DNA of 64,000 nt from Terracidiphilus sp. (GCA_049517315.1 JBEKSE010000002.1:17202-81201); one strand, 5' to 3'. Numbered from the stretch's first letter, positions 23,848-50,008 are shown. Made by a program: numbers and translations. Notes: generated by a model from the letters alone, not told the origin.

Positions 23848-24453
23848 CTAAATCCAGCCGCGCACGGCATAGTAGGCAATTTTGATGGATTCCTCCATCA
23901 TGGTTTCAAAGGCGGAGAAGCGGCCGTTCCAGTGTTCGGTAGAGTGAAGCACATCGGGAACTGCCATGGGCGTGACTTCAATGCCCAGCTTGCGAAAGAC
24001 GCGAAGCGCCCTGTACATATGAAAGTCGCTGGTGAGCAGAATTTTCTTGCCGGGCATGCCCTGGATCAGTCGAGCCGTCTCGATTCCGTTTTCGCGGGTG
24101 CTTTTGGATGGCCACTCGGCTACGACGGCTTCGCGGGGAATGCCTTCAGAGAGCAGGAAGTTGAGGATGCCAGGGCCTCCGCCGCCGCTGATCACAATCT
24201 TTTTGAAGCCTCCTGTTTGCCACGCAAAAATCGCTTCGCGCGCACGCCAATAAGAGGAATAGGAGATGCCGCCCATATCGTCTCCCGCCGCGCTGAGGAG
24301 GATGAGCACATCGCCTCGTGGCCGCTCGATGGGACCGGCGTAGGTTCGCGCCCACCACGAAACGACCGGTGTGGCGATCACCAACACGGTGATCAGTCCG
24401 ATGGCCGCTAGCGCGCGTCTGAGCCAAACGCCAGCTCTAAGAAGTGCTCTCAT
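23848..24453 (-). CDS. YdcF/DUF218 family protein
   Basis: N-terminal TM; ISGGG, STRENG, LLTSDFHMYRA. Confidence 0.88.
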   Translation of the reverse strand: MRALLRAGVWLRRALAAIGLITVLVIATPVVSWWARTYAGPIERPRGDVLILLSAAGDDMGGISYSSYWRAREAIFAWQTGGFKKIVISGGGGPGILNFLLSEGIPREAVVAEWPSKSTRENGIETARLIQGMPGKKILLTSDFHMYRALRVFRKLGIEVTPMAVPDVLHSTEHWNGRFSAFETMMEESIKIAYYAVRGWI

Positions 24454-25641: not shown

Positions 25642-27714
25642 TCACCGCGGCAAGGATGAGGACTGCAAAGCCTGCGGGACCGGAAAGGTTCGCCGCAAGC
25701 CTTCGGCGACGCCTACCCGAGGCGTCCATCCCAACTGCTGCTGCGCGGCCGCCTGGTCGAAGTTATGGAGTGGGCGGATGGAGCGGATGCGGTATCTCGA
25801 CAGGGGCACGCTGCGCTTAAGCAGACGCCCGAGCGCCTCGATTCCTATTGATGCGGTCATCAACACGAATTTTGGAATGTAACTGGCCTTGATCTTCGGC
25901 CTGGCTGCCCGGGCGATCTGGATGAACTCACGCTGCGTGACCAAGGCCGGGTCAACCAGGTTGATCAGCGCGCCTTCCAGGCCAGGACGCGAGGAACCAA
26001 GCAGAAGCGCATCCACAACGTCGTCCACGTAGACGAGCGGCAGCGGCAGAGAACCGTTGCCTACAACAATCCAGCGGCCGAACATGGCAAAGCCGCCGGC
26101 CGGGCAACTGGGTTCAACATCGGGACCGAAGATTACGCCGGGACGAATCACGACCGCGGGCAAGCCTCTCTCTTTCGCCGCAGCTATCACCATGCGCTCG
26201 GCTTCGAGTTTGGTCTGCGTATAAGCTCCGCGCAGTTCGGCGTGAGGTTCGAGCGGCCAAGCCTCGGAGACTTTGCCGGCGTGGCTCACGGCATGCTCGA
26301 GCACGCTCACCGAGCTTACGTAAACCATGCGCTCGACGTGGTGCTTGAGACAAGCATCGATTACGTTGCGGGTTCCCGCAACCGTGCCGCGCTGGAAGTC
26401 CGCCGGGCTACCCTTCATCGCAGCCCCTACATGGAAGACCGTGTCCACACCGGCGACGAGAACATCGACATATTCGGGGTCACCAAGGTCGCCCGCGAAA
26501 TAGTCGATCCCGGGACGCGGATTGCCGGGAATCCGGCGAACACCCGCGCGCACCCGCGCACCCTCTTGCAGCAGGCGGCGCACCATCGCACCACCGAGGA
26601 ATCCGCCTCCCCCGGTTACAAGAACGTCAGCCGGTGCGCGTGGCGTCAGCTGCGCCTGCCTAAGAGCATCGCGCTGGCGATCGGCTTCCTCGGACACAGG
26701 GGCCATCGCCCTGACCAGGCGCATGCCCTCCTCTGGGGTCACTGGCACTACAGTACCTTGTTCCAGCGCGGCGTAAAACTCGCGGATGTTCTGTTGAATG
26801 CCCGGCGCTCCCGGCAGTCGCTTGGTTATGAATCTCAGCACATTGCGCGGCACTTCATAGAGGCTCGCCGCGGAGTTGCGCATGGCGCAGATCACAGGAG
26901 AAGCGAACTTCGGCCCTGGAAGCAGCTTGGTCACGTAGCAGGTCTGCAACAGGCAGTCGATCTGCATCACTCCGCGAGTGCCATGTACAATCACCTGGCT
27001 GCGTATCGGGCGCACATTCCATGAAAGGTACATGCGCGCCTGTCCACGCTCACAGTTCACCCTCGCCGTCCACTCGTCGAACACAAGGTTGCTGTCGAGC
27101 CCGGTGGAGCGGAAATCGATCTCCGTCGACGTAATCTGACCCAAAAACGCCTCTGCAATGGCGAGGCCATGCACACCGATGTCTTGCAATGGATAGGAGC
27201 CTTTGCGGTACTGGGGCGGGAGTTTGCCGCCTCCAGGCCACGCCGGGTAATCGGAGCTTCGATGAAAGTCTAGCGAGAGAACCTGGCCGATCTCTCCGAC
27301 ACGAACAATTTCCACTCCGCGCTTCACGATCGGATCAAGTCTGCCGGAGTGAACCACGCCCAACGTGCGACCGCTCGAACTGGCGGCTGCCATCATTTGT
27401 TCGCATTGCTCCACGGTCTCCGCCATCGGCTTTTCGACCAGCACGTGCGCGCCCGCCTGAAGAGCTTGAACGCTGACCTGCGCATGAAAAGAGGGCGGGG
27501 TAAGCACGTGGACCACATCCACGCCGGAAGCGAGTAACTCCTTGGTGCTTCCGTAGGCGTTGGGCAGATTGAATGCTTTGGCGACAACCTCCGCCTTGTC
27601 CAGGTCAAGGTCAGCTATCCCCACAACTTGAACCGACGCAATCGACTTGAGGGCGCGAAGATGGTGCGCGCTGACATAGCCCGCACCGACAATTCCAACT
27701 CTAAACTTATTCAT
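25642..27714 (-). CDS. Fusion of a Gfo/Idh/MocA oxidoreductase and an NAD-dependent epimerase/dehydratase (SDR)
   Basis: N-terminal half: VGIVGAGYVS, HVLVEKPMA. C-terminal half: VLVTGGGGFLG, YVSS, YTQTK. One continuous 690 aa frame. Confidence 0.88.
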   Translation of the reverse strand: MNKFRVGIVGAGYVSAHHLRALKSIASVQVVGIADLDLDKAEVVAKAFNLPNAYGSTKELLASGVDVVHVLTPPSFHAQVSVQALQAGAHVLVEKPMAETVEQCEQMMAAASSSGRTLGVVHSGRLDPIVKRGVEIVRVGEIGQVLSLDFHRSSDYPAWPGGGKLPPQYRKGSYPLQDIGVHGLAIAEAFLGQITSTEIDFRSTGLDSNLVFDEWTARVNCERGQARMYLSWNVRPIRSQVIVHGTRGVMQIDCLLQTCYVTKLLPGPKFASPVICAMRNSAASLYEVPRNVLRFITKRLPGAPGIQQNIREFYAALEQGTVVPVTPEEGMRLVRAMAPVSEEADRQRDALRQAQLTPRAPADVLVTGGGGFLGGAMVRRLLQEGARVRAGVRRIPGNPRPGIDYFAGDLGDPEYVDVLVAGVDTVFHVGAAMKGSPADFQRGTVAGTRNVIDACLKHHVERMVYVSSVSVLEHAVSHAGKVSEAWPLEPHAELRGAYTQTKLEAERMVIAAAKERGLPAVVIRPGVIFGPDVEPSCPAGGFAMFGRWIVVGNGSLPLPLVYVDDVVDALLLGSSRPGLEGALINLVDPALVTQREFIQIARAARPKIKASYIPKFVLMTASIGIEALGRLLKRSVPLSRYRIRSIRPLHNFDQAAAQQQLGWTPRVGVAEGLRRTFPVPQALQSSSLPR

Positions 27715-27874: not shown

Positions 27875-29029
27875 ATGGAGTTCATTTATTTTGGCAATGA
27901 CTGGTTTGCCGACAATCGCACCAGCAGCCACCACATCGCCAGGCGTCTCGGCGCCCGGTTTCCGATGCTCTATGTCGAGGTTCCCGGGCTGCGCGCGCCC
28001 AAGGCGAATGTTCGCGATCTACGTAAACTATTGAGGAAGCTCCGCATGACTTTTCAAGCACCTCAATTGGTTGCTCCACACTTCTGGCGCATGACGCTGC
28101 CGCAAATCCCATTTCGCCGCTTTGCAGCTATTCGCGCTGTGAACCGCGCTTTCTCGCAAATGCTTATTCGCAGAGCCATTAGCAAACTCGGTTTCAATGA
28201 TGCAATCGCCTGGTTTCATGTGCCGCATCCAGGGTTCCTGGCCAAACGTCTGGGGGAAAAGCTAACTGTTTTTTATTGCATCGACGAATACTCGAAACTG
28301 CCCGACGTGGATGGAATAGCCGTGCAGGCCATGGACGACCAACTTACGGCTGCGGCGGACATTGTCTTCGTTTGCAACCAGAAGTTGATGGATGCTCGCC
28401 AGTCTCTCAACGCCAACATTCATCTTTCGCCGCACGGTGTGGACACGGATCTGTTCGCGCTGGCCAATTCGCCCGACACCCAAATCCCCGAGGAAGCGAA
28501 ATCCATGTCCCGGCCGATCATCGGGTTTTGGGGGCTTCTGGATCGATGGGTGGATCTCGGCATCCTGGAAGATATTGCTCGCGCTCGACCGGAGTGGACA
28601 GTTTTGCTGATCGGGCGCGCAGCGGTGGATGTCTCAGTGCTGAAGCGTTTACCGAACGTCGTTTTCGCAGGAGTGAAGCCTTACTCTGAATTGCCTAACT
28701 GGGCCAAAGTGATCGACGTCTGCATTCTGCCATTCACGCAGACCTCGTTGATGGTGCAGTCGAGCCCCCTGAAACTGCGCGAGTATTTGGCTGCTGGAAA
28801 GCCGATCGTTTCCGTTCCACTGCCTGAAGCAAAGCTGCTCGGCAAAGCATTATTGACCGCTGAGGACGGGCCGGGGTTCGTCCGCGCGATCGAGGAGGCG
28901 CTCGTTGCTAACACGCCCGAACTGGCCGCTCTTCGCCAGAAAGCCGTCGAAAAGAACACTTGGGATGCAACAGTGGCGAATGTATTGGGCAAGTTGCAGA
29001 AAGAATTAGCCAATCGCCAGCGAAGCTAA
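27875..29029 (+). CDS. Glycosyltransferase (GT4-like, TuaH-type)
   Basis: VFYCIDEY, IGFWGLLDRWVD, SPLKLREYLAAGKPIVS; ATG 27875 behind GAGGA. Confidence 0.88.
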   Translation: MEFIYFGNDWFADNRTSSHHIARRLGARFPMLYVEVPGLRAPKANVRDLRKLLRKLRMTFQAPQLVAPHFWRMTLPQIPFRRFAAIRAVNRAFSQMLIRRAISKLGFNDAIAWFHVPHPGFLAKRLGEKLTVFYCIDEYSKLPDVDGIAVQAMDDQLTAAADIVFVCNQKLMDARQSLNANIHLSPHGVDTDLFALANSPDTQIPEEAKSMSRPIIGFWGLLDRWVDLGILEDIARARPEWTVLLIGRAAVDVSVLKRLPNVVFAGVKPYSELPNWAKVIDVCILPFTQTSLMVQSSPLKLREYLAAGKPIVSVPLPEAKLLGKALLTAEDGPGFVRAIEEALVANTPELAALRQKAVEKNTWDATVANVLGKLQKELANRQRS

Positions 29030-29203: not shown

Positions 29204-30220
29204 ATGAGCGGTAGAATAGAGGCAATGCGACAGTGCATATGCGGGGAAATACGAACATCGGTGCTGGGATTCGGTTGCGAATCAGTACTGGGGCGCGTTG
29301 GCCGCAGTGACTCGCTGCGCGCAATGAACGTTGCCTGGAACCAGGGAATCACGCTCTTCGATACGGCTCGGAGTTACGGATTTGGCGAAGCAGAGGCGGT
29401 GCTGGGCGAGTTCCTTCACGGTAAACGCGCGCAAGCCGTCGTGGCGACAAAGTTTGGCATAGATCCGCAGAAACCGAACAAGTGGAAGAGTGCCGCGGTC
29501 CGCGCAGCCCGAAAAGTACCGGGAATTCGCGACCTTTTCGGTTCAGGCGAAGAAGTCGACCCAAGCACCGACAGTGAAGTCACCCGTGGGGAGTTCACTG
29601 TGGAAGGGTTGCGAGCATCGCTTGAGTGCAGCTTGCGCCAACTCCAGACCGACTACGTCGATGTGCTTTTTTTGCATGAGGCCACCGGAGACGTGCTGTA
29701 CCAGCAAGACCTGATGGAGGCGCTCGACAGGTTGGTGCAGGCAGGCAAGGTGCGTCGCGTGGGCCTGTATGCTGACGCGGAGGTGATCGCTGAAGGCATC
29801 GGTAATGGACCGGCGACACTAACTGCAATGCAGTATGGCGGCAATCCTTTTGATCAACTGGTAGCCGCAATTCCGCAGCACAACCGGCGCGGGCTATTTC
29901 TGATTGCCAATCATCCATTCGGCGGCGAGCAGCGCGTCACGCGAGTGCAGGATACTCTTGAGGCAATCTCTTTCGATGAGACTGTACCTGCCGAACTCCG
30001 CGAAAAGCTGCGCGGCGCGGACTGGGAGACAATCACTGAAGCTATCTTTGGGGCAACCTTGAACGGCACGGGGGTTCATGCGCTGGTGCTCTCAATGATG
30101 CAAGAGGATCACCTGCGCGCCAATGCCCGCGCGGTCGAAAGCGATCGCTTTTCCATCGAAGACCTGGCACTGATACGAGATCGCTTGCTGTTTTCTCCCG
30201 CAACCGTGCCCGGTGTGTAA
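29204..30220 (+). CDS. Aldo/keto reductase
   Basis: LGFGC, FDTARSYG, ATKFG, LQTDYVDVLFLH; the D/Y/K/H catalytic tetrad is present. Confidence 0.9.
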   Translation: MSGRIEAMRQCICGEIRTSVLGFGCESVLGRVGRSDSLRAMNVAWNQGITLFDTARSYGFGEAEAVLGEFLHGKRAQAVVATKFGIDPQKPNKWKSAAVRAARKVPGIRDLFGSGEEVDPSTDSEVTRGEFTVEGLRASLECSLRQLQTDYVDVLFLHEATGDVLYQQDLMEALDRLVQAGKVRRVGLYADAEVIAEGIGNGPATLTAMQYGGNPFDQLVAAIPQHNRRGLFLIANHPFGGEQRVTRVQDTLEAISFDETVPAELREKLRGADWETITEAIFGATLNGTGVHALVLSMMQEDHLRANARAVESDRFSIEDLALIRDRLLFSPATVPGV

Positions 30221-30270: not shown

Positions 30271-31338
30271 TCAGGCTCGATAGGCTTCAACAACCCCAGA
30301 GGGCACGGCGGGTTTGCGGCCATGTATCAGCGTATCGGCAGCCTGGTACATCTGCCAGGCGGTGGCCCAGTGAATCTCGACACCTCTTCGGCCAGCTTCT
30401 TCCGCGAGCCAACGGAATAGATTGTCAAGACCTCCGTTAAGCAACGGTTCGAGATTCCTTTCCTGCGCGCCGTGGGTGTAGAGTTTCAAAAAAATGTCTT
30501 CCCCGATGGCTGGCGCCAGATCGAACCACTGGCTCACTCGCGAGGGAGTTGGCAGATCGTAACCGGCAAGCTCGCCGGTTTCCATGCGCGGCAGAAGCCG
30601 TTCGCCGAATCGCAGACCAAGCGGTCCTGTAATCATCAGCAGGTCGCCTTGCCTGCCGCCGCCAACCGTGGCTTCTATTCCGCGATCGAAGGATTTGGGG
30701 CGATTGCCAGCGTTGTTTGTACACCAGTAAATCTGGTTCAGCACGCGCCCCTGGGTCGCCGAAGGAGCAGAGGGCATGGTGAAATCGGCGTAGCAGCCGA
30801 GATCGCGCAGTAAAGCAATCTCGCCATTCAGGCCGCACCACTTGCCATCTGGATGCGAGTTGTCCAGCGCCCAGTTGCCATGGATAAAGCCGAATACTGT
30901 TCGGCCGTCTTTCTGTCGAAGCAGACCGTGGTCGCCTGTCAAGCGGCGACAGTATTCTGTCACTTTCCGGATGAAGGAATCACGCTGCTCGTTGTCATGG
31001 TGTAGATGCACCTCCACATCGCCTACACCGAGGCGGACAATTTCCGCGATGCCGTCGAGCAGGTCGCGCCGGTACTCTTCTTGCGGGTAAAAGAAAGTGT
31101 ATTGAGGACACTGGCCTGCCGCGTCCTTAAAAGCATCGCCGGCAATGCGAGGCCACTTCTCACGCCATAGCGCTACGCGGCCAAGGGCTGTTTCAACGGA
31201 TGCGCCCATGCCCAGTGGCTCATAGTGATCGGTAATGGCAACCCAGGCGCGCTTCGGCCTTTCGGATCGCGCGATCTTTTTCAAGCGGTCCGCTAGATAT
31301 GGTAAAAGCCAAATCTCTGCATGTCGCGGGAGCTTCAT
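30271..31338 (-). CDS. Conserved hypothetical protein, possible metal-dependent deacetylase/hydrolase fold
   Basis: 355 aa from ATG 31338; His/Asp-rich motifs TDHYEP, EVHLHHD, FIHGNWALDN, YADFTMPS, KLYTHG. Confidence 0.65.
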   Translation of the reverse strand: MKLPRHAEIWLLPYLADRLKKIARSERPKRAWVAITDHYEPLGMGASVETALGRVALWREKWPRIAGDAFKDAAGQCPQYTFFYPQEEYRRDLLDGIAEIVRLGVGDVEVHLHHDNEQRDSFIRKVTEYCRRLTGDHGLLRQKDGRTVFGFIHGNWALDNSHPDGKWCGLNGEIALLRDLGCYADFTMPSAPSATQGRVLNQIYWCTNNAGNRPKSFDRGIEATVGGGRQGDLLMITGPLGLRFGERLLPRMETGELAGYDLPTPSRVSQWFDLAPAIGEDIFLKLYTHGAQERNLEPLLNGGLDNLFRWLAEEAGRRGVEIHWATAWQMYQAADTLIHGRKPAVPSGVVEAYRA

Positions 31339-31491: not shown

Positions 31492-32571
31492 CTAATGAGC
31501 CTGGCGCGAAAGAATTTCTGCAATCCGTTCCGATGCTTTGCCATCCCATAGAGGTAGATGGCGCTTCTGGCTGTGATTGCCGCGCAACGCTTCATGAAAC
31601 TTTTCCTCGAGTAATTTCCAATTGCGGCCTATCAAGACATTTGTCCCAAGGGTCACAGTGATTGGCCGCTCGGTGTTTTCGCGCAAGGTGAGGCATGGTG
31701 TTCCCAAATACGTGGTTTCCTCTTGAATCCCGCCTGAGTCCGTGATCACAACTTTTGCGTTCTTCTGCAGCGCAAGAAACTCGAGATATCCCAAGGGCTC
31801 GATAGCTCGAAGGTCCGGATTACATTGCTCCAACTGCGCAGACCACTTTTGGCGTGTCCTTGGATGAACAGGAAAGATCAAGGGAAGCTCCCTGCTTAAC
31901 CTGTCAAGCGCCTGTAACATCGGCAAGAACGTCGATTCGTCGTCGACATTCGAAGGACGATGTAGCGTAACTAGTCCAAAAGAATCCAGGGATAGCTCTG
32001 CCTTAAGTTGCGGAAATATTTCGTCCGCTTTGGGAAGGAACTGAATCAAAGTGTCTATCATTACGTTGCCGACGAGAAACACCTTCTCCTTGGCAACGCC
32101 TTCGCGCGCAAGGTTTTCATTGCCATCGGCTGAAGGAGTGAAAAGAAGATCCGCAAGTTGGTCGGTAACCAGGCGGTTGATCTCTTCGGGCATCGCGCGA
32201 TCAAATGAGCGCAGGCCTGCCTCCACGTGTCCCACCCGAATGTCGAGCTTGGAGCATACCAGTGCCGCCGCTACGGTAGAATTCACGTCGCCATAAACAA
32301 GAACAATGTCCGGTTTATGCTTCAGTACAACTGGCTCAAATCGACTCATGATTGCCGCGGTTTGCTGCGCGTGTGAACCCGATCCAACGTTCAGGCTTTC
32401 GTCGGGATTTGGAATTCTTAATGTTTTGAAAAATACGTCCGACATGAGCGCGTCATAATGTTGGCCTGTATGCACCAGTATCTGCTCGTGCCCCTGGTCA
32501 GCCAGCGCGCGATAAACGGGAGCCGCCTTCATGAAGTTTGGCCGTGCTCCAACTACGTGTAGCACTTTCAT
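31492..32571 (-). CDS. wecB: UDP-N-acetylglucosamine 2-epimerase (non-hydrolysing)
   Basis: VVGARPNFMK, VHTGQHYD, HVEAGLRS, EEINR, TDSGGIQEE, LRENTERP. Confidence 0.96.
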   Translation of the reverse strand: MKVLHVVGARPNFMKAAPVYRALADQGHEQILVHTGQHYDALMSDVFFKTLRIPNPDESLNVGSGSHAQQTAAIMSRFEPVVLKHKPDIVLVYGDVNSTVAAALVCSKLDIRVGHVEAGLRSFDRAMPEEINRLVTDQLADLLFTPSADGNENLAREGVAKEKVFLVGNVMIDTLIQFLPKADEIFPQLKAELSLDSFGLVTLHRPSNVDDESTFLPMLQALDRLSRELPLIFPVHPRTRQKWSAQLEQCNPDLRAIEPLGYLEFLALQKNAKVVITDSGGIQEETTYLGTPCLTLRENTERPITVTLGTNVLIGRNWKLLEEKFHEALRGNHSQKRHLPLWDGKASERIAEILSRQAH

Positions 32572-32914
32572 TCTGAGATCCCTTTCCCGAACAAGCATCC
32601 CCAATGCAAAGTTCCAGCACCACTACCGACCGTAATTTCGCTTTGCGTCTTCCCCGACTTCTGAGGGGCTGCCAATCTGCAGCAATCACACTTTCCCCAC
32701 GAGTATCGAGCACTCTTCCCTTCTATGTCAAAATCATCAGAGAGAGCTATCAATTTGCAATTCGTGACCCACCTTCTCCCTAGCAAGGCGGCCTTGAGCA
32801 CAAATGCTGGCGTGATTCAGTTTCATCTATTACTATCGGGATGAATGCTGGGGTGGGTTTGATTCGGGGAACAAAGTTGAGCAATCATCGCCCTGGAATT
32901 CCGAGGAAGGTAGA

Positions 32915-33088: not shown

Positions 33089-33168
33089 ATGCGCTATCCC
33101 GCCCGAGGGAAAAATTCATGTCTTTTGCGATTAGTTCGTTGAGCCGGCGGAAAGCTTGCACTGAGACA

Positions 33169-34662
33169 ATGGGAACACCGCGCCAAGCTCGATTTTTAAC
33201 TCCTGCCGCTGTTTACGGAGGGCTGGGTTTTGCCATTCTCCTGTTCTTTTTGCAAACCCTCCCTTATCTGTCTTATCGCTGGCTTCCGGATGAGAGTTGG
33301 TATTCTGGACCGGCTTATTCCATGGTTCACGGCAACGGAATTGCGAATCCCGCATTCGGCCCCAATGAGCTGGAAAACCATATAGATGCGCGGCCACCCG
33401 GAACCGCGATTGTTATCGCCGCGGCCTTTCGACTCTTTGGAACAAGTTCGATTTCCGCCCGTCTGGGATCAATTCTTGCCGGTGTTGCAATTATCCTTCT
33501 TACTTATCGAATGGCGCGCGACGTGATCGGGGTAGAGGGCGCCCTGGTTGCCACATTCCTTGTAGCCACCGACAACCTGGTTGTGCTCACTTCCCGCAGC
33601 GCGCGGCCTGAGGCTCTTACAACTATGGCGATTCTGGCCTCTTTGCTAGCAATGAAGCAATATGCCCAGAAAGGTCGCATCGTCTGGGCGTTTTTGAGCG
33701 GCATACTCATCGCCGCGGGAACTGTATTCCATATCACACTGCTGGGATACATCGTCTCCATCGGTATTCTGGCTATTGTTCTGGATCGCGGGCGCGGCGC
33801 CTTTCCGCTGCGGGGCGCAACCGGCTACGGGATTGGGTACGGCCTCGGCCTCGTGCCCTTCGCAGCCTGGATACTTACTGCTCCTCTTGGACGCTCCGGC
33901 TTCCGCGCAGAATATCTGAGCCGCGCTGGGGGCACACCGCTCTGGTCGAAATTCCTGCATGAGGGGCTTCGCTACTCCGACCTGCTCGGCCTCAACATGT
34001 TCCACGGGCACGGGATGGAATTCATTCCTGTCAGGCTTCCCATACCGCTCTTCTTCATGGCAGCCAGTTTTCTTCTCTGGAAGCTGCGCCCGCGGTGGTT
34101 TTATCTTGAATTGCTCCTGCTCACCCCCACTGTGTTTTGGCTCATTTACACGGTGAACAAGACTTCGCGTTACTTCGCGCTGCTGGCTCCAGTCTTTGCC
34201 CTGGTTATTGGCGCTGCGGTTGCCGCCTCCAGTTCAAGCCGGAGGTTACATCGCGTCCTGCTTAGCCTATCCTGCCTGTTGGTTGCGGCGCAGATGTCGG
34301 CCAACGTTTTCTTGCTTCATGCCGCCAGCAAAGCGAATTACGACAAGGTTACGGCAGAATTGCGGAGTGTCATCCCTCCGGGCCAGACAGCGTACGGAAC
34401 CGTCACCTTCTGGCTTGCCCTTCACGATCATCCCTATATCGCTTATGAGCGCACCGATCCCTGGATGGCGGCCAACCAGTTCCACGCAAGATACTTCATC
34501 ACGGGCGACCGTGTGATGACCAGCGGATTGCAAGGTGATGAGGCATTCTATGAGAGTCTGCGTCGGAGTATGGCCGAGGTGATCGATCAAAGCACGCTGG
34601 TCGGGCGCTCTTCTGACCTATATTATGGCGACTTGAAGGTCTACAAACTGAACGAACCCTGA
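33169..34662 (+). CDS. GT-C fold membrane glycosyltransferase (ArnT/PMT, GT39/83-like)
   Basis: N-terminal TM, then DESWY loop, HIDARPPG, ARPE, RYFALL; about 11 TM. Alternative start at 33118. Confidence 0.8.
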   Translation: MGTPRQARFLTPAAVYGGLGFAILLFFLQTLPYLSYRWLPDESWYSGPAYSMVHGNGIANPAFGPNELENHIDARPPGTAIVIAAAFRLFGTSSISARLGSILAGVAIILLTYRMARDVIGVEGALVATFLVATDNLVVLTSRSARPEALTTMAILASLLAMKQYAQKGRIVWAFLSGILIAAGTVFHITLLGYIVSIGILAIVLDRGRGAFPLRGATGYGIGYGLGLVPFAAWILTAPLGRSGFRAEYLSRAGGTPLWSKFLHEGLRYSDLLGLNMFHGHGMEFIPVRLPIPLFFMAASFLLWKLRPRWFYLELLLLTPTVFWLIYTVNKTSRYFALLAPVFALVIGAAVAASSSSRRLHRVLLSLSCLLVAAQMSANVFLLHAASKANYDKVTAELRSVIPPGQTAYGTVTFWLALHDHPYIAYERTDPWMAANQFHARYFITGDRVMTSGLQGDEAFYESLRRSMAEVIDQSTLVGRSSDLYYGDLKVYKLNEP

Positions 34663-34691
34663 TCGATCGCGGCCTGCTGGCTTGAATCTGA

Positions 34692-35234
34692 GATATAGGA
34701 TTTTCTATCTTTTGGCATACAGGAGGTCACCTCAATATGGCCGCCTACATCCCGTGCTTTCTCTGCGGAGTCCTTTGCTATTCGCTTCGGAATCGCATCG
34801 GTGCGTTTATACCCTCCGCGCTCTGGCCACCATTCCTTCTCCTGCTCTTCTCCGGCTACTGCCTGGCCTAGCCCGTCCTTGGAGTCAACGAGTTTTGGAT
34901 CAGCTGGATTTTCTGCTTACTTCTTGGACTTGCGATCAACGCATTTCACAACTCCACCAATAAGCCTATCAATGCCGTGGCTGAAAAGATCGCCTTGTAT
35001 TCTTATGGTATGTATTTAATTCATGCTCTTGTCCTCTACCTCGTTTTTATGGCGCTTGGCATCAGAAATTTCGTTTTTGGACCTTTACTTTTCATTGGGC
35101 TCACGATGGTCGCGTCCTTCCTCACTTATCACTTTCTTGAACCTCCATTGATCGATCTCGGAAGAAAACTAAGCTCGCGGCTGCCGCGTAGACCAGTCGC
35201 GCTGCCGGCGCAGAAGACGCACGTGGGCTCCTGA
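34692..35234 (+). pseudogene. C-terminal fragment of an acyltransferase-3 gene with a premature stop
   Basis: Frame reads ...MAAYIPCFLCG...GYCLA* (TAG 34869) ...IALYSYGMYLIH...SFLTYHFLEPP; the N-terminal half is missing. Confidence 0.8.
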
Positions 35235-35341
35235 ATCGTTAAATGCTAGCAGAGGCTTGTCTAGGGCAAGATCCGAGAGCAGAATTGTACCCGACGGCCA
35301 CAAGCCATGATGATATTCTGAATGAGCCAGGAGGTCTTTGG

Positions 35342-36421
35342 GTGAGAGGCAGCGCTGACTTCAGTAGAAACAACCTGGATTGTCTTCGACTGATTTTTGC
35401 GACCATGGTTGTTTTTGTGCATATCTATGCTTTGACACACCTCTCTATTTTTTTTGTATTTGACAAGTACGTTTCAGCGGTAATCGCTGTCAGAGCGTTT
35501 TTTGTAATCAGCGGGCTTCTAATTTATCGCAGTTATACCCGTTCATCTTCCATAGGTTCGTACTTCGAAAAGCGGATCAGGCGCATTTATCCTGCCTACT
35601 TCACCAGCGTGATGCTAGCGGCTATTGCGTTGTGTTCGCTGAGCACGTTGCCTATATCGCAATACTTCGGCGTTGGATTCTGGAAATATCTTGGTGCAAA
35701 TCTTTTGTTTCTCAACTTTTTGGTGCCCTCGCTGCCGGGAGTGTTCACGTCGAATACCATGCCAGCCGTAAATGGTGCGCTCTGGACACTCAAGATTGAG
35801 GTCGGCTTTTATTTAATCGTTCCTTTTATCCATTATTTGACAAACCGATTCGGAACCAAGAAAGTTATTGGGATAATCTTCTGCCTTTCTTGCCTTTGGA
35901 AGTACGGCTTTGCATTGCTGGGCGCAATGTATAGATTACCTGCCATTTATACACTGGATAGTGGGCGCAGTTTTTACGCACAGATGGGGGCGCAATTTCC
36001 GGGGCAGCTCTTGTATTTCTGCGCGGGCATCTTGCTTTTGGTCTATTTCGATACGCTAAAGCTTCACTTTTTAAGCATTGCCGGAATTACGATCGGTTTA
36101 TTTCTTCTCGACCATTGGTTCATGAGGGGAAACCTTGATGTTTTCTGGATTTCCGGATTGGTATTTGTCTTTGGCTTTTGGCACTACTTCGGAAACTTTG
36201 CGAGATACGGCGATTTTTCGTATGGCGTATATATTGTTCATTTCCCGATTTTGCAGACACTGATTGCGCTCGGGCTTGCAGGGATGAACCCAGCTATTTT
36301 CCTTCTTGTCAGTCTTTCCCTTATCGGCCTGGCCGGTTTGCTCATGTGGCATCTGGTCGAAAGCAGGTTTTTGAAGAGCAGTTCCCATTACCGTCAGGAG
36401 GCCATCAAGGTACATGGGTAG
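35342..36421 (+). CDS. Acyltransferase family 3 (OafA-like O-acyltransferase)
   Basis: LDCLRL, FFVISG, NGALWTLKIE, DFSYGVYIVHFP, WHLVE; GTG 35342 behind AGGAGG. Confidence 0.9.
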   Translation: MRGSADFSRNNLDCLRLIFATMVVFVHIYALTHLSIFFVFDKYVSAVIAVRAFFVISGLLIYRSYTRSSSIGSYFEKRIRRIYPAYFTSVMLAAIALCSLSTLPISQYFGVGFWKYLGANLLFLNFLVPSLPGVFTSNTMPAVNGALWTLKIEVGFYLIVPFIHYLTNRFGTKKVIGIIFCLSCLWKYGFALLGAMYRLPAIYTLDSGRSFYAQMGAQFPGQLLYFCAGILLLVYFDTLKLHFLSIAGITIGLFLLDHWFMRGNLDVFWISGLVFVFGFWHYFGNFARYGDFSYGVYIVHFPILQTLIALGLAGMNPAIFLLVSLSLIGLAGLLMWHLVESRFLKSSSHYRQEAIKVHG

Positions 36422-36622
36422 GCATCACCGGAGCGAAGGTATTCTTCGTAAATCCGGTGCGCTGGAGGTTTTCGCCATTGTTGCGCATTTACCTCCCGAA
36501 ATGTTCAATTTACCTGCGCTGGCTAGAAATCTCGTCACCTCTCGACTGTATATATCGATGGATTCGGCCCTGCCATTTCGGTTATTCTGATTTTGCCGCC
36601 ACCTTTGATCAGGCCGTTCATT

Positions 36623-38020
36623 ATGGGCTTTGCTTTAAGCGTTTTCTATTTCGTTACGTACTACCTTACGCCCACAACCATGTTCGGGCCGCTGGCGGTT
36701 TACCGCATTGAGCTGATTCTTGCGGCACTAGTGCTGCTCGTCTCGCTGCCTGCGCTGATAAAATCATTCCTCTTCAAGACGCCGCAGTCTTTGGCTTTGA
36801 TCGGATTGGCGTTTGCCGTCTTTCTGTCTGTGCTTATCGCGGTGCATTGGCCCGGAGGAGGCGTTCAGGCATTTCTAGATTTCATCCCGTGCGCGTTCGC
36901 ATATTTTCTTGTGTGTCTGCACTGCAACACGAAGAGAAGATTGCGGGTTATCGTTCTTATGCTCCTGTTCATCTGCCTTTTTGTGATTGCTCATGGGTCT
37001 TTTGATCTGCTTCATGGTGTTCCGCGGAACGGTGCGCCCCAATCGTTAGAGCCAGGGAGTGCGGAATTGGCTTTATGGAATATGAAGCAACCTTACCTTC
37101 TCCCAATGAGGAACCCCACAGGAGAGACGATCTATCGGCTAAGGGGACTAGGAGAGATCAACGACCCGAATGACCTTGGCCAACTGATCGTCTGCGTGAT
37201 TCCGCTGATGTTCATCTTCTGGCGCCCGACGAATGTGCCCCGAAACTTTGTCTTTGTGATCTTACCGGTGTGTTTATTGCTGTACGGGGTGTTCCTGACG
37301 CACTCGCGCGGGGACCTGCTGGCCTTGGTGGCGGTGGCGGTAGTTGCGGCACGGCGGCGCATCGGCGCGCTGCCTTCATTGCTGTTGGGAGGTGGATTGT
37401 TCTTTGCCGCAATGGCCTTGAACTTCACCGGCGGGCGCGGTATCTCTGCCAGTGCGGGCGAAGACCGCACGGCTCTCTGGGGCGAAAGCCTGCAACTGCT
37501 GAAGTCTCATCCGTTTTTTGGCGTAGGATTCGGGCACTTGCCGGGCTATATCGGTCTTACAGCGCACAACTCGGTCGCAGTCTGCCTGGCAGAGCTTGGT
37601 TTATTCGGGTTCTTCTTCTGGTGCCTTTTTCTGTTTCCTACGGTGAGGGACTCCCTGGAGATTGCTTCGCCTTCGAAGATAAGTGAACCAGGACCGACTT
37701 TACCCGAGGAAAGACTCTTTCCAACGACGACATGGAAGATTGAGGATATCGACAAGGCGGAGGTGAACCGCCTGGGTCGTGTGCTGTTTTTGTCGTTGAC
37801 GGGCTTTCTGGTTTCGGCGTGGTTTCTTTCGCGCGCTTTTGTCATGACGTTCTTTCTTTTGGGCGGCATGGCCGAAGTGGTTTTCGAGATGGCTTTGCGG
37901 CGAGGGATGGTTGTTCCCCGAATGCGGCTCGTGCGCGTGCTTCCTTATGCTGGTGGATTGGTAGTCGCGCTGATACTCGTGATGTACATCATGCTTCGAA
38001 TTCTGAATCTGATGCACTAA
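36623..38020 (+). CDS. O-antigen ligase/Wzy-like polymerase family protein
   Basis: Multi-TM; DPNDLG, LTHSRG, R..LWG, HPFFGVGFG, AHNS. Start ATG 36623; the track starts at TTG 36593. Confidence 0.85.
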   Translation: MGFALSVFYFVTYYLTPTTMFGPLAVYRIELILAALVLLVSLPALIKSFLFKTPQSLALIGLAFAVFLSVLIAVHWPGGGVQAFLDFIPCAFAYFLVCLHCNTKRRLRVIVLMLLFICLFVIAHGSFDLLHGVPRNGAPQSLEPGSAELALWNMKQPYLLPMRNPTGETIYRLRGLGEINDPNDLGQLIVCVIPLMFIFWRPTNVPRNFVFVILPVCLLLYGVFLTHSRGDLLALVAVAVVAARRRIGALPSLLLGGGLFFAAMALNFTGGRGISASAGEDRTALWGESLQLLKSHPFFGVGFGHLPGYIGLTAHNSVAVCLAELGLFGFFFWCLFLFPTVRDSLEIASPSKISEPGPTLPEERLFPTTTWKIEDIDKAEVNRLGRVLFLSLTGFLVSAWFLSRAFVMTFFLLGGMAEVVFEMALRRGMVVPRMRLVRVLPYAGGLVVALILVMYIMLRILNLMH

Positions 38021-38103
38021 TTTGAACGGTCGGCAGCTCGCAGCGATCCATGTCTGAAATAGAGGCTTATCAGTGCCGTGCTGTCGGAGGCTAAACAACC
38101 TGA

Positions 38104-39204
38104 ATGAGAATTGCACATGTGGTTGACAGCATGGAGATCGGCGGGGCCGAGACGCTCGTCTCGCAGATGTGCCGCCTGCAGCGGGAGCAGGGCCACGACC
38201 CGCGCGTATACGCAATAGCGTCTCTTGGCCCGCTCGGCGAACAGATGCGAGTCGATGGTTTCGTGGTAAACGCTAACTTGGGTCAGCATTTGCCGGACGC
38301 CACGTGGAGCTTCTTCCGCACATTCAGGGAATCACATCCCGACGTGGTTCACCTTCATAACCCGACGCCGACAGTTTATGCCGCCGTTGCTGCCCGAACG
38401 GCAGGCGTGCCCAGTATTGTGTCGACCCGGCATAGTCTCGTCGGCCTACCGCGCAGGTTCATAGCGGAGTTGAAATATGCCTTTGCGGCGACATGCTGCG
38501 ACTGGGTCGCCGGTATTTGCGATGCAACCGTGAATAACATGAAAAGCATTCACAGTGTCGCGTCCAGAAAGATTGTGCGCGTTTACAACGGCGCGGTACC
38601 TGTAGTGCGCGTGCCGAAAGAACTCTGGCCTCGGAAAGAGGGATTTACGCTGGTTTACGTCGGCAGGCTTGAGCCTGTAAAGAACCATGTATTGCTGCTG
38701 AACGCCTTTCGTATTGCGCTTCGGTCCAGGCCGGACTTACGCCTTTGGATGGTGGGTGATGGAAGCGAACGAAAAGCTTTGGAGAGTTTGGCCACTGAGT
38801 TGGGCATCGATTCCCAAATTAAATTCTGGGGGCAGCAACTCGACGTGGCGCCGTTCTTTTCCGCGGCCGACGCGTTCATTATGTCGTCGAAATCGGAAGG
38901 ATTGCCCATGTCACTTTTGCAAGCCTTCTCACTGGGACTCCCGGCAATCGTGACTGATGTGGGCGGTATGGCGGAAGTTGTACGGCTGGCGCAGGCAGGG
39001 TTCACAGTGCCGGTTTCGGATTGCGCCGGAATGGCTGCGGCGATTCTTCAGCTGGCGGACAGCGACGCGGAACGGAAGCTATTCTCGATGAACGCGGAAC
39101 AGGCGTTCCACTCGCGCTTTGCTTTACAGACTATGGTCGATGCCTACATGGGCCTTTATCGGGACACTTCGCGAGCCCGGCGCGCAGCAAACAACGGAGT
39201 GTAG
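38104..39204 (+). CDS. Glycosyltransferase family 4
   Basis: IGGAET, VVHLH, VGRLEPVKNH, SSKSEGLPMSLLQA (second Glu of Ex7E replaced by Gln). Confidence 0.9.
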   Translation: MRIAHVVDSMEIGGAETLVSQMCRLQREQGHDPRVYAIASLGPLGEQMRVDGFVVNANLGQHLPDATWSFFRTFRESHPDVVHLHNPTPTVYAAVAARTAGVPSIVSTRHSLVGLPRRFIAELKYAFAATCCDWVAGICDATVNNMKSIHSVASRKIVRVYNGAVPVVRVPKELWPRKEGFTLVYVGRLEPVKNHVLLLNAFRIALRSRPDLRLWMVGDGSERKALESLATELGIDSQIKFWGQQLDVAPFFSAADAFIMSSKSEGLPMSLLQAFSLGLPAIVTDVGGMAEVVRLAQAGFTVPVSDCAGMAAAILQLADSDAERKLFSMNAEQAFHSRFALQTMVDAYMGLYRDTSRARRAANNGV

Positions 39205-39287
39205 CAATTTCCCAAAGCTCTGCCTCTATGGCAAATGCCAAAAAGCCTACGGTCTTTTTTGCCCAGAGTTTGTTCTATTGGATCTCG

Positions 39288-40643
39288 CTAGTTCGTGCCG
39301 GGGCTGCCTGTGCGGGACGCGAAGGCGGGGATTAGTCTGCCGACGTTCTCGCAAAGCCAAACAAGAGTGGCGCTCGCCAGGATAATGCACAGGCCTTCAA
39401 CCGGGTAACGAAATCGCGACGATCCCCAGAAGACCAGTGCAGTTAAGACAAAGTGGAACACTCCCAAGTGGACTATCCAGCTTGGATTGTTCGTCCTCAG
39501 GAAATAGATTGCACTAGGAAAGAAACCCAGCGCGAAAAGAACCAAAATCGGTCCCCACGACATCAGTACGCCAACCCGGTAAAGCATCGGGCTTTTCAAT
39601 TGCAGAAACGGGGTCCACGACCGGCGGAACCGTGATTCGACAAGGTACCACAGTTTCTCAGGATGACTGCGCACCCATTTAATGGCCAGCGCTGTTTCGA
39701 CATGATCGCGGATCACCTCGTTGTTTGGCGCGGTAATTTGCGCACGGTACTCTGGAAGTCCGGAGGTCGGATATATCCAGTAGCCATAGTAGAGCGGGTC
39801 GGATGCTATTACTCGGTTGTAACTGCCGAGCAAGACATCTCCTCCCCCCGTTTCGATCAGAACAAATGAATGAAATGTCCAGTAGTTGCGGATCGTCCAA
39901 GGCAGAAGCATGACCAAAGCCACAAGTGAAATGGCTAAGCCGCGGACGATTAGTTGCGGTGTCCTCCGAAATTGCCAAACCGACCACGGGACCATCAGCG
40001 CAACCATCATTATTGCGTTTCCTCGCGTCAGCATGGCAAGACCGAGAAGGACTCCCGCGGCAATAGAACGCGGCCAGCTCGCGCGATCCGCGAATTGCAG
40101 CGAGATCAGGATGAAGCAGCAGAATAGAAAAGTGTACAGTGGCTCAGATCCCAATTGACTCGCGTAAAACAACGCCGTCGGCCACACAGCGTAGATTGCA
40201 GCTGCCAGTAGCGCAACCACAGCGCTGAAGCACTTGCGCCCGATTCCGTAAACAAGCATGATCGTCAGCGTTTCCAGGACACACTGCGAAATTCGCACAA
40301 CGCCATATCGATGTCCAAAGGACCGATACAGACCCGCCCATAGCACCGATGTTCCAGGAGCACGATAGGCTGTCGGATGCTCCAGCAATTGTCCATCGGC
40401 TTTTTTCACGTCGGGGCTGATTCCGCTGAATCCATGTCCCTGGGCAAGATTCCAGGCATAAGAGTCGTATTCGCTGGCATCCGAGCCGAATACGGGCGGC
40501 GTGTCCAATCCACCATGAATCGTTATTGCCATGCGGAGCGCCAACCCCAAAACCATCAGCACAGGCAGGAGTCGTGAAGACAACCACCGTAAACTGCGTT
40601 TACTGGAGTCGTTGCCGGACTGGATTTCATTACTTTGTTTCAT
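39288..40643 (-). CDS. Second GT-C fold membrane glycosyltransferase (ArnT/PMT-like)
   Basis: DASEYD loop, AYRAPG, SEPLY, PWTIRNY, RFRYPVE; start ATG 40643. Confidence 0.8.
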   Translation of the reverse strand: MKQSNEIQSGNDSSKRSLRWLSSRLLPVLMVLGLALRMAITIHGGLDTPPVFGSDASEYDSYAWNLAQGHGFSGISPDVKKADGQLLEHPTAYRAPGTSVLWAGLYRSFGHRYGVVRISQCVLETLTIMLVYGIGRKCFSAVVALLAAAIYAVWPTALFYASQLGSEPLYTFLFCCFILISLQFADRASWPRSIAAGVLLGLAMLTRGNAIMMVALMVPWSVWQFRRTPQLIVRGLAISLVALVMLLPWTIRNYWTFHSFVLIETGGGDVLLGSYNRVIASDPLYYGYWIYPTSGLPEYRAQITAPNNEVIRDHVETALAIKWVRSHPEKLWYLVESRFRRSWTPFLQLKSPMLYRVGVLMSWGPILVLFALGFFPSAIYFLRTNNPSWIVHLGVFHFVLTALVFWGSSRFRYPVEGLCIILASATLVWLCENVGRLIPAFASRTGSPGTN

Positions 40644-40680
40644 AGTCGAGTGAGCTCCCGGATAAAACTTGGAAAACGAG

Positions 40681-41889: not shown

Positions 41890-42043
41890 GGAGAGGCTCC
41901 TTTCTGACCTCAGACTCCCGTAAATGGAACTGCTCGTAAACCACTTCTTAGAGGGAGAATCGGCCGATTCGATACTGACTGCGTGTTATCACGGGCATTC
42001 TGACAAACCATCTGGACCGACGGTGCTGAGCCACGGTTTATGG

Positions 42044-42829
42044 CTAACGTCCCTTCCGTTCGGCGGCGCGCTGTACGCTTCCGGCCTCAGGGAGTACGCG
42101 AAAAGAGTCATCGAGGCTGCATAGAAAGTTGAATCGCAAGATATACCAGACCGCCGCGAGGCCATCTGTCATCCCGATCTTCTTGCCCTGCTCGTAAGTT
42201 CGTCCGTGGTAGGAAATTGGCACCTCGTAGATCGAGACGCCAAGTTTGGCCACTTTCGCGGTGACTTCAATCTCGAAACCAAATCCGGAGCTAGTAATCG
42301 TCATGTTGCGAATAATCTCGCCACGAAACGCCTTATAGCAGGTTTCGACATCTGTCATGTTGACGTTCGTGCACAGGTTTGAAAGAAATGTCAGCCCTTT
42401 GTTGGCGAGGTAGTGATAGAAGTAGAGCACGCGCGATGCCTTGCGCACCAGAAAGCGCGAGCCGTAAACCACATCCGCGTAGCCTTCCACGATGGGTGCA
42501 ATCACGTCGCCGATTTCCGCGGGGTCGTATTCCAGATCGGCATCTTGCACGATGACGATCTGCCCCGTAGTCAATGCAAAACCCGTCTTCAGCGCTTCGG
42601 TCTTGCCCATATTCCTGGGATGGTGGGCGACTTTGACCGTCGGGTGCTCCGCGGCCAGCCGGTCGGCGATTGCCGGCGTTCCATCGGTGGAACAATCGTC
42701 TACGATGATGATTTCGCCGGCATTTGGAACCGCAATCAGGCGCGCCACGATTTCAGGCAACGTGGCTTCTTCGTTGAAGGCCGGAACAACAATGGAGAGT
42801 AGCGGCCGGTACTCGGCTGGAGTACTCAT
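42044..42829 (-). CDS. GT2 glycosyltransferase, polyprenol-phosphate (DPM synthase/GtrB-like)
   Basis: VVPAFNEE, VDDCSTDGT, QDADLEYDP, VVYGSRF, DVETCYK, EVPISY. Confidence 0.9.
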   Translation of the reverse strand: MSTPAEYRPLLSIVVPAFNEEATLPEIVARLIAVPNAGEIIIVDDCSTDGTPAIADRLAAEHPTVKVAHHPRNMGKTEALKTGFALTTGQIVIVQDADLEYDPAEIGDVIAPIVEGYADVVYGSRFLVRKASRVLYFYHYLANKGLTFLSNLCTNVNMTDVETCYKAFRGEIIRNMTITSSGFGFEIEVTAKVAKLGVSIYEVPISYHGRTYEQGKKIGMTDGLAAVWYILRFNFLCSLDDSFRVLPEAGSVQRAAERKGR

Positions 42830-42964
42830 TCAATATCTCCGTTCACAATATCGCTGGCACAAGAATCGTCCAGAACATACTGACTGCCTTTATTCTCAAC
42901 AGCGCGTAGCCTTCGTTCACACGGCGATTCCGCTAAGATTGAGCCGGAATAGGCTTCTTTAGCG

Positions 42965-43969: not shown

Positions 43970-43987
43970 AACGGCCTGATGCTCCTC

Positions 43988-48451: not shown

Positions 48452-48453
48452 AG

Positions 48454-49992: not shown

Positions 49993-50008
49993 AGTCCTCC
50001 CTGATGAG

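What the first reader, a model, noticed from the sequence alone, without database searches (positions are those of the whole stretch)
25642..27714. Double-Rossmann fusion: Gfo/Idh/MocA dehydrogenase plus SDR epimerase/reductase
Seen: both halves retain their motifs (GAGYVS and EKP; TGGGGFLG, S and YTQTK) in one 690-aa frame, in an operon with a GT4 and a DUF218 gene. Known: Gfo/Idh/MocA members such as WlbA/WbpB oxidise NDP-sugar C3, and extended SDRs epimerise or reduce. Inference: channelled oxidation-reduction producing a rare sugar epimer, possibly with the divergently encoded aldo-keto reductase and WecB. No aminotransferase is present, which argues against a diamino-sugar route.
Basis: partly seen in the sequence, partly recalled or inferred. 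Interest (0 to 1): 0.6.

Follow-up and report, generated by a model that had tools for sequence, protein, structure and literature searches.

The report
Fused two-step sugar-flipping enzyme, uncharacterised
This soil bacterium's slime-synthesis cluster encodes one protein made of two intact sugar redox enzymes, which probably oxidise and then re-reduce one sugar hydroxyl to flip it; the pairing is widespread and I found no test of it, but the chemical logic is already known from other two-enzyme systems.

Summary
In detail: 25642-27714(-) is one 690-aa ORF, Gfo/Idh/MocA plus extended SDR, both halves folding well (pLDDT 92.5) with catalytic residues essentially invariant in 127 homologues. It is not rare. 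Relatives include Gfo-SDR fusions, reverse SDR-Gfo fusions of at least two origins (p-AU 0.0005), split coupled pairs (one elsewhere in this genome) and glycosyltransferase fusions; 42 of 49 loci have an adjacent glycosyltransferase. The Gfo half has the NAD signature (D35). The SDR half has the NADP signature (R393) and lacks the dehydratase acid, so it looks like a ketoreductase, not a GalE-type epimerase. Best reading (0.45; about 0.6 with a lipid-linked substrate): NAD+ oxidation then NADPH reduction at one carbon, probably C3, supplying an epimeric sugar to the neighbouring TuaH-like GT4. This works like ElaA/ElaC and DprE1/DprE2. Not supported: the aldo-keto reductase link (0 of 48 loci); WecB is occasional (6 of 48); channelling is unshown; the substrate is unknown. 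This scan noted such fusions many times before on other DNA, some with the same NAD/NADPH reading. No paper on the family was found. New variant of a known kind; interest 0.38.

The parts
25642..27714 (-). Gfo/Idh/MocA + extended-SDR fusion gene, 690 aa
   Evidence: AF2 model pLDDT 92.5, pTM 0.87
26674..27714 (-). N-terminal Gfo/Idh/MocA domain (aa 1-347): NAD-type D35, H77, E94-K95-P96, D178, H182; inserted helix 271-296
   Evidence: VIA Z 33-34 to GenD2, WlbA and 1,5-AF reductase, Z 31 to GnnA
25669..26637 (-). C-terminal extended SDR (aa 360-682): TGxxGxxG, NADP-type R389/R393/R394, S467, Y498, K502; no acid at 469; joined to the Gfo half by helix 327-355
27875..29029 (+). TuaH-like GT4, divergent; the best-conserved partner (likely start ATG at 27875 after a Shine-Dalgarno-like sequence)
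   Evidence: 30 of 48 close-subfamily loci; directly 5' and co-oriented in Bryobacteraceae, Burkholderiales and Polyangia; fused to this SDR type in P0233
24450..25622 (-). TuaC-like GT4, co-transcribed downstream
   Evidence: 28 of 48 loci, directly 3' in nearly all Acidobacteriaceae loci
23848..24453 (-). DUF218/ElyC-like gene, coupled to the GT4
   Evidence: 15 of 48 loci, Acidobacteriaceae only in the genome loci
30271..31338 (-). Pfam-less His/Asp-rich protein (D37-H38, H111/H113/H114, H153, H289 invariant); frequent neighbour and possible metal-dependent deacylase
   Evidence: 25 of 48 loci including Polyangia; alignment; Atlas lead to Polysacc_deac_1 clusters at 0.82-0.83 only
31492..32604 (-). 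WecB UDP-GlcNAc 2-epimerase; occasional neighbour and possible source of a ManNAc substrate here
   Evidence: TIGR00236 above cut-off; 6 of 48 loci
29204..30220 (+). Aldo-keto reductase; neighbour in this genome only, not part of the conserved module
   Evidence: 0 of 48 loci
33118..61542 (.). Rest of the Wzx/Wzy-type, exosortase-associated polysaccharide cluster (Wzy_C, priming sugar transferase, export genes, EpsH exosortase, DUF3485/EpsI, flippase-like gene, deacetylase, acyltransferases, GT-C genes)

Best explanation
The protein is a cytoplasmic two-step redox epimerase for a nucleotide sugar. Step 1 (inferred): the Gfo half oxidises one ring hydroxyl to a ketone with NAD+. C3 is the most likely carbon, by analogy with WlbA, GnnA, KanD2 and GenD2. 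Step 2 (inferred): the SDR half reduces that ketone from the opposite face with NADPH. Using two cofactor pools would pull the reaction towards the otherwise minor epimer, for example allo from gluco, altro from manno, or gulo from galacto; which one is not determined. Step 3 (inferred): the adjacent TuaH-like GT4 adds the product to the lipid-linked repeat unit of the exosortase-associated polysaccharide. Shown by sequence: intact catalytic residues, the opposite cofactor signatures, persistent pairing of the two halves, and linkage to glycosyltransferases. Not shown: activity, substrate, carbon, or channelling.
For: Catalytic residues are invariant or nearly so in 127 close sequences: D178, H182, S467, Y498, K502 and R389 in 127/127; D35 and K95 in 126/127. 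Across 50%-cluster representatives, Gfo D35 is kept in 95/96 Gfo-SDR and 12/12 SDR-Gfo fusions; SDR R393 is kept in 91/97 (His in the other 6) and 12/12, never D or E. Acid after beta-2 means NAD, base means NADP (PMC2792337). Position 469 is hydrophobic, so the dehydratase/decarboxylase acid is absent (its role in those enzymes is my own knowledge). The top sequence matches of the SDR half are OleD/HpnA models and Gox2253/NSDHL, with GalE far weaker. The halves stay together through order swaps of at least two origins (0 of 200 bootstrap trees with one; p-AU 0.0005) and as coupled split genes. In L057 a stand-alone SDR of this subfamily overlaps an FAD-binding oxidoreductase gene instead of a Gfo gene. 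A glycosyltransferase is adjacent in 42/49 loci; GT4-Gfo-SDR and GT4-SDR fusions exist; in Paracoccus only a GT2 sits directly beside the fusion. Precedent: Gfo ElaA oxidation plus SDR ElaC reduction is proposed for C8 epimerisation (PMC13656337). The two halves folded as separate chains gave weak support for an interface: 0.44 against a best control of 0.02, contact agreement at least 87%, partner pLDDT at least 88. The mark was reached by 58/80 solved and 2/110 mismatched pairs, but at 0.60 or under by only 7 solved pairs and both mismatches.
Against: No member has been assayed as far as I could find. NADP binding does not exclude self-contained chemistry: GDP-mannose dehydratase uses NADP+ (PMC2792337) and, from my own knowledge, so does HldD. 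Seven of 97 distant fusions lack the SDR Ser or Tyr. P0233 (GT4-SDR) has no Gfo gene on its 6.8-kb contig. Neighbouring precursor genes vary (WecB, AlgD-like or TviB-like 6-dehydrogenases, GDP-heptose genes), so no single substrate emerges. EPS of two cultured Acidobacteria showed only common sugars (PMC5259719), though whether those strains carry this gene was not checked. Many loci are close kin and are not independent.
Confidence: 0.45

Rival explanations
1. Same oxidise-then-reduce inversion, but on a lipid-linked sugar (undecaprenyl-PP repeat unit or polyprenyl-P sugar) at the membrane, after the adjacent glycosyltransferase has acted, as in DprE1/DprE2.
For: The tightest link is to a glycosyltransferase rather than to nucleotide-sugar supply genes. 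The SDR half is closest to reductases of lipidic substrates (OleD, HpnA, NSDHL). Both halves carry conserved basic amphipathic helices: 271-296 in 107/109, net charge +2.5, and 615-632 in 110/110, net +2.1. An FAD oxidoreductase replaces the Gfo in L057. DprE1/DprE2 precedent: PMC9993113.
Against: The helix moments are only slightly above those of ordinary helices and longer segments inflate them; they may instead be the domain or dimer interface. Solved Gfo relatives act on soluble sugars or nucleotide sugars.
Confidence: 0.17
2. Oxidation and reduction hit different carbons. The keto sugar tautomerises, epimerises at a neighbouring carbon or eliminates (possibly helped by the His/Asp-rich neighbour at 30271-31338), and the SDR reduces the rearranged ketone to a 2- or 4-epimer or a deoxy sugar.
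For: Extended SDR nucleotide-sugar reductases usually act at C4 while Gfo enzymes act at C3 (own knowledge). The closest Gfo sequences are DgpA-type 3-oxidases, whose 3-keto products rearrange (own knowledge). The unknown protein co-occurs in 25 of 48 loci.
Against: The unknown protein also occurs in 15 of 120 family genomes, only one of which has the fusion. I noticed no RmlC-like epimerase or 2,3-dehydratase as a constant neighbour.
Confidence: 0.16
3. The halves do unrelated steps and are fused only for co-expression. The Gfo half makes a 3-keto sugar for an aminotransferase encoded elsewhere, and the SDR half is a self-contained NADP-bound epimerase or reduces another pathway's 4-keto sugar.
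For: The genome has four DegT-type genes. Some homologue loci contain DegT genes, although beside their own separate Gfo gene. Stand-alone SDRs of this subfamily occur without an adjacent Gfo.
Against: The same two subfamilies re-pair in both orders and as split genes. No aminotransferase is a conserved neighbour.
Confidence: 0.14
4. The substrate is not the sugar ring but a substituent or linker of the polymer (polyol, inositol or oxo-acyl group), whose hydroxyl is inverted or reduced.
For: Similarity to inositol dehydrogenases and to OleD/NSDHL beta-keto-acid enzymes. Acyltransferases, CapK-like ligases and ATP-grasp genes occur in some loci.
Against: Adjacency and direct fusion are with glycosyltransferases, not acyl-handling genes.
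Confidence: 0.08

Closest known systems
ElaA (Gfo/Idh/MocA) + ElaC (SDR), CMP-legionaminate C8 epimerisation, Acinetobacter baumannii KL49 (PMC13656337)
   Same: The same two superfamilies, proposed to oxidise and then face-selectively re-reduce one hydroxyl of a nucleotide sugar for a surface polysaccharide; Lys/His catalytic pair in the Gfo enzyme.
   Different: ElaA and ElaC are separate proteins. ElaA binds NADP+ and ElaC is a KAR-like SDR bound to NAD+; here the signatures are reversed and the SDR is extended. No cytidylyltransferase or nonulosonate genes were seen in this locus.
DprE1/DprE2 decaprenylphosphoryl-ribose 2'-epimerase (PMC9993113)
   Same: Two-step epimerisation through a keto intermediate, ending in a NAD(P)H reductase, for a cell-envelope glycan; the two enzymes form a complex.
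   Different: The oxidase is a flavoprotein, not Gfo; the substrate is a lipid-linked pentose; the proteins are not fused.
WlbA/WbpB, GnnA and archaeal UDP-GlcNAc 3-dehydrogenase; KanD2/GenD2
   Same: Gfo fold (VIA Z 31-34, 16-22% identity), NAD-type Asp, EKP and catalytic His; best Gfo NCBIfam hit is NF040723, far below its cut-off.
   Different: They hand the 3-keto sugar to a PLP aminotransferase (own knowledge); here the constant partner is an SDR and no aminotransferase is linked.
OleD / HpnA / Gox2253 / NSDHL-like extended SDRs
   Same: Best sequence matches of the C-terminal half; Arg after beta-2, Ser-Tyr-Lys triad.
   Different: Scores are far below the family cut-offs (140 against 580 bits for OleD; 119 against 368 for HpnA), and the gene context is polysaccharide rather than olefin, hopanoid or sterol synthesis.
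EpaA (aldo-keto reductase domain) + EpaB (SDR), pseudaminate 8-epimerisation (PMC12053666)
   Same: Another two-oxidoreductase epimerisation; shows that an AKR can in principle take part.
   Different: Different first enzyme; the AKR beside this fusion is not conserved (0 of 48 loci).

Membership tests
Gfo/Idh/MocA oxidoreductases (N-terminal half) | N-terminal Rossmann domain (PF01408) plus C-terminal alpha/beta domain | tested here: met
   PF01408 99 bits against cut-off 24; PF22725 35 bits against 27; fold Z 31-34 over about 300-325 residues
Gfo/Idh/MocA oxidoreductases (N-terminal half) | EKP motif and catalytic D/N-x-x-x-H | tested here: met
   E94-K95-P96 and D178/H182 present and essentially invariant in 127 sequences
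Extended SDR (C-terminal half) | [ST]GxxGxxG, Ser and YxxxK, extra C-terminal domain | tested here: met
   definition in PMC2792337; Z about 29-30 to extended SDRs
GalE-type NAD-bound 4-epimerases | Acidic residue after beta-2 that binds NAD+ | tested here: not met
   Arg393 (or His) in all 127 close and 109 distant sequences; TIGR01179 40 bits against cut-off 262
NDP-sugar 4,6-dehydratases and decarboxylases (RmlB, Gmd, PseB, UXS) | Acidic general acid just after the catalytic Ser/Thr | tested here: not met
   Positions 468-470 read S-hydrophobic-S/A; family scores far below cut-off; the motif definition is my own knowledge
WlbA/WbpB/GnnA route to 3-amino sugars | Linked DegT-type aminotransferase | tested here: not met
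   None in the window and not a conserved neighbour; four unlinked DegT genes in the genome
WlbA/WbpB/GnnA route to 3-amino sugars | Oxidation of C3 of UDP-GlcNAc(A); uronate-binding Arg/Tyr | tested here: inconclusive
   R152 and Y156 are near-invariant in the close subfamily, but I could not obtain a residue-level alignment to WlbA and the paper was not held
ElaA/ElaC-type nonulosonate epimerisation system | Gfo dehydrogenase paired with an SDR in a surface-glycan locus | tested here: met
ElaA/ElaC-type nonulosonate epimerisation system | KAR-like NAD-binding SDR, NADP-binding Gfo, linked CMP-transferase and nonulosonate genes | tested here: not met
   Extended NADP-type SDR and NAD-type Gfo; no such genes seen among the ORFs of 12000-64000; Ela features
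ElaA/ElaC-type or DprE1/DprE2-type two-step epimerases | Net inversion of one hydroxyl through a keto intermediate | not testable with these tools
   Needs an enzyme assay with NMR or isotope labelling
OleD (NF042422) and HpnA (TIGR03466) | Curated HMM cut-off | tested here: not met
   140 against 580 bits and 119 against 368 bits

The most novel reading that the evidence does not exclude
This is the type member of a widespread, undescribed family of single-chain, cofactor-driven (NAD+ in, NADPH out) sugar epimerases, each paired with its own glycosyltransferase. They would put rare allo-, altro- or gulo-configured sugars into the exopolysaccharides of many uncultured soil and aquatic bacteria, possibly acting on the lipid-linked repeat unit.
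Probability: 0.4. Interest if true: 0.6.

Novelty: new variant of a known kind. Interest (0 to 1): 0.38.

Why it matters
Databases label these proteins 'NAD-dependent epimerase/dehydratase', which hides a probable distinct chemistry. If the reading is right, one purifiable protein would drive a nucleotide sugar to an unfavoured epimer by drawing on two cofactor pools. That would assign a function to a family of thousands of genes (one Atlas cluster alone has 2,285 members), predict rare sugars in the exopolysaccharides of Acidobacteriota, Myxococcota, Planctomycetota and Proteobacteria, and give a compact biocatalyst for rare NDP-sugars. Cultured carriers of distant members (Paracoccus, Shinella, Ruegeria, Aquisphaera) make it testable. 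The principle itself has precedent (ElaA/ElaC, DprE1/DprE2), so a specialist would find it a useful target rather than a surprise.

Tried and rejected
Artefact or chance read-through: rejected (full-length homologues; even GC3). AKR as partner: rejected (0 of 48 loci). WecB as obligate partner: rejected (6 of 48). GDP-heptose as the general substrate: heptose genes flank the fusion in only a few loci (L010, L024, L040, L041, L070) and were not found in this genome by the queries used. Literature searches for the fusion found nothing relevant; the library lacks most subscription papers, so this does not show absence. No solved chain covers both halves. A residue-level comparison with WlbA could not be obtained (papers not held). 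The neighbour at 30271-31338 was folded without an alignment and failed (pLDDT 37); its profile found no PDB match, so its fold is untested. Promoter and terminator counts were at or near chance level. A phylum-wide search with a stand-alone SDR query found 0 of 400 other genomes, but only 5 candidates were scored per genome. Congruence of the Gfo and SDR trees (Spearman 0.81) is expected for fused halves and was given little weight.

Full report
Observation. The interval 25642-27714(-) is one 690-aa ORF. It has a Gfo/Idh/MocA Rossmann domain at 4-121, the Gfo C-terminal domain at 135-250 and an extended SDR at 364-572. AlphaFold2 with 81 sequences gives pLDDT 92.5 and pTM 0.87, with both halves well folded and joined by helix 327-355. 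The N half matches GenD2, WlbA, GnnA and related enzymes at Z 31-34 and the C half matches extended SDRs at Z about 29-30; no solved chain spans both. About 110 of the 120 best homologues listed are full length at 51-91% identity, and GC3 is even across the junction, so the fusion is real.

Setting. Closest relatives are from Terracidiphilus and other Acidobacteriaceae, up to 92% identical. The gene is followed after 19 nt by a TuaC-like GT4 that overlaps a DUF218 gene. It is divergent from a TuaH-like GT4 (likely start 27875) at the left end of a Wzx/Wzy-type cluster with a priming transferase, export genes and an exosortase. A DegT query finds no aminotransferase in the window but four elsewhere in the genome.

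The family is large and flexible. An unfiltered search of 50%-cluster representatives gave 754 hits at E up to 1e-30. Of the 149 new ones listed, 110 are Gfo-SDR fusions, 12 are reverse SDR-Gfo fusions, and 27 hold one half, many of them fragments. The nearest Atlas cluster has 2,285 members, commonest Pseudomonadota. Named carriers include Polyangia, Burkholderiales, Bryobacteraceae, Planctomycetota and KSB1, and at 25-28% identity cultured Paracoccus, Shinella and Ruegeria; Aquisphaera was found with a more distant member. The reverse fusions fall in two clades: 0 of 200 bootstrap trees give one origin and the one-clade tree is rejected (p-AU 0.0005). Split, coupled pairs exist, including one in a second polysaccharide cluster of this genome, SDR then Gfo, and several next to a fusion. 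There is a GT4-Gfo-SDR triple fusion and a fusion of the TuaH-like GT4 (37% identical to the window's) to this SDR type. Distribution is patchy: 3 of 120 family genomes at E up to 1e-60 (one of the three, G002, is unpublished and is used only in this count).

Both halves look active and carry opposite cofactor signatures. In 127 close sequences D178, H182, R389, S467, Y498 and K502 are invariant, and D35 and K95 are kept in 126. In the distant set D35 is kept in 95/96 and 12/12, and R393 in 91/97 (His otherwise) and 12/12. An acid after beta-2 indicates NAD and a base indicates NADP (PMC2792337). So the Gfo half is NAD-type and the SDR half NADP-type, whatever the domain order, and three of the four split pairs examined show the same pattern. 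The SDR lacks both the GalE acid and the dehydratase acid, and scores best with OleD, HpnA, Gox2253 and NSDHL, all far below family cut-offs. It therefore looks like a ketoreductase. Seven of 97 distant members have lost the Ser or Tyr.

Partners. A glycosyltransferase is adjacent in 42 of 49 loci examined, and two of the seven exceptions end at a contig edge; many of these loci are kin. In the close subfamily (48 loci) the TuaH-like GT4 occurs in 30, the TuaC-like GT4 in 28, the Pfam-less protein 30271-31338 in 25, DUF218 in 15, WecB in 6 and the aldo-keto reductase in 0. The TuaH-like gene is directly upstream and co-oriented outside Acidobacteriaceae. In eight Acidobacteriaceae loci an stp1-like GT4 takes its place, seven of them with an AlgD-like nucleotide-sugar dehydrogenase. 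In Paracoccus only a GT2 sits directly beside the fusion. In L057 a stand-alone SDR of this subfamily follows an AlgD-like gene and an stp1-like GT4 and overlaps an FAD-binding oxidoreductase gene cut by the contig end. This suggests the SDR needs an oxidising partner but not necessarily a Gfo; it is a single, truncated case.

Mechanism. The simplest reading is NAD+ oxidation of one hydroxyl by the Gfo half, then NADPH reduction from the other face by the SDR half, with the epimer passed to the adjacent GT4 (0.45 for a nucleotide sugar, 0.17 more for a lipid-linked sugar). C3 is inferred only from the known Gfo sugar dehydrogenases. Precursor genes vary between loci, so the substrate is not determined; WecB makes a ManNAc derivative possible here. 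Folding the halves as separate chains gave weak support for an interface: 0.44 against 0.02 for the best control, agreement at least 87%, pLDDT at least 88, and passes at 0.60 or under came from 7 of 80 solved and 2 of 110 mismatched pairs. My model and the Atlas model of the nearest cluster agree at TM 0.74, rmsd 5.8 A, which suggests an uncertain domain angle. Channelling is therefore not shown. Basic amphipathic helices are conserved in both halves, a weak hint of membrane association. The remaining rivals are reduction at a different carbon after tautomerisation (0.16), unrelated steps (0.14) and a non-ring substrate (0.08).

Comparison with what is known. A Gfo enzyme that oxidises and an SDR that re-reduces with face selectivity is the proposed mechanism of ElaA/ElaC in Acinetobacter capsule synthesis (PMC13656337). 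DprE1/DprE2 (PMC9993113) and EpaA/EpaB (PMC12053666) follow similar two-enzyme logic. This protein works like them but is not a member: it is fused, its SDR is extended, its cofactor signatures are the reverse of Ela's, and no nonulosonate genes were seen. It is not a WlbA/WbpB amino-sugar pathway at locus level. Searches of the held literature found no description of the family, and databases give only automatic names.

Earlier notes of this scan. Three first-reader notes describe look-alike fusions in other genomes, and a word search returned 22 findings, including follow-ups on shorter SDR-Gfo fusions that reached the same NAD/NADPH reading and the DprE comparison. I recorded my cofactor reading before seeing them. 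They are AI notes and add no support.

Verdict. Observation confirmed; interpretation partly supported. This is a real, widespread, apparently uncharacterised two-domain sugar-tailoring enzyme with a specific and testable mechanism whose principle has precedent. New variant of a known kind; interest 0.38.

Noticed in passing
L038:9943-12208 (G000:C5:12945-15207): The same genome carries a split SDR + Gfo pair of the same wider family (30% and 24% identical; N-x-x-x-H instead of D-x-x-x-H) in a second polysaccharide cluster with a DegT aminotransferase, another Gfo and an amidotransferase.
   Followed up: partly
window 30271-31338: Pfam-less protein with invariant D37-H38, H111/H113/H114, H153 and H289; a frequent neighbour of the fusion across phyla, also present in genomes lacking it. 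Possible CE4-like deacylase; fold untested.
   Followed up: partly
window 31409-31438 and 32702-32731 (- strand): Identical promoter-like pairs TTGACA-N18-GATACT lie upstream of both wecB and the unknown gene, with different spacers.
   Followed up: no
window 32916-33091: Truncated acyltransferase-3 remnant with an in-frame stop, 72% identical over 127 nt to the intact gene at 35343.
   Followed up: no
L057:1716-3031: A stand-alone SDR of this subfamily is coupled to an FAD-binding oxidoreductase rather than a Gfo gene, downstream of AlgD-like and stp1-like genes: a possible replacement of the oxidising half.
   Followed up: partly
L001, L002, L004, L005, L011, L012, L017 against L006-L010 and the window: Upstream of the fusion, the divergent TuaH-like GT4 and a co-oriented stp1-like GT4 with an AlgD-like dehydrogenase are mutually exclusive cassettes in Acidobacteriaceae.
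   Followed up: partly
proteins P0122-P0270: Seven of 97 distant fusions replace the SDR catalytic Ser or Tyr while keeping the Lys: possibly a subclade with an inactive or altered SDR half.
   Followed up: no
L040, L041, L024, L010, L070: The fusion sits beside GDP-heptose genes (HddA, NTP transferase, GmhA, GmhB) and a transaldolase-like gene in some loci.
   Followed up: no
window 58768-60468: ATP-grasp domain fused to a low-molecular-weight phosphatase domain inside the polysaccharide cluster; no full-length match in the related loci.
   Followed up: no
L039:7554-11177 (G000:C3): A third glycan cluster has a Zn-ADH-like + Gfo fusion of 700 aa followed by a heparinase-II/III-like gene, judged by eye from the translation.
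   Followed up: no
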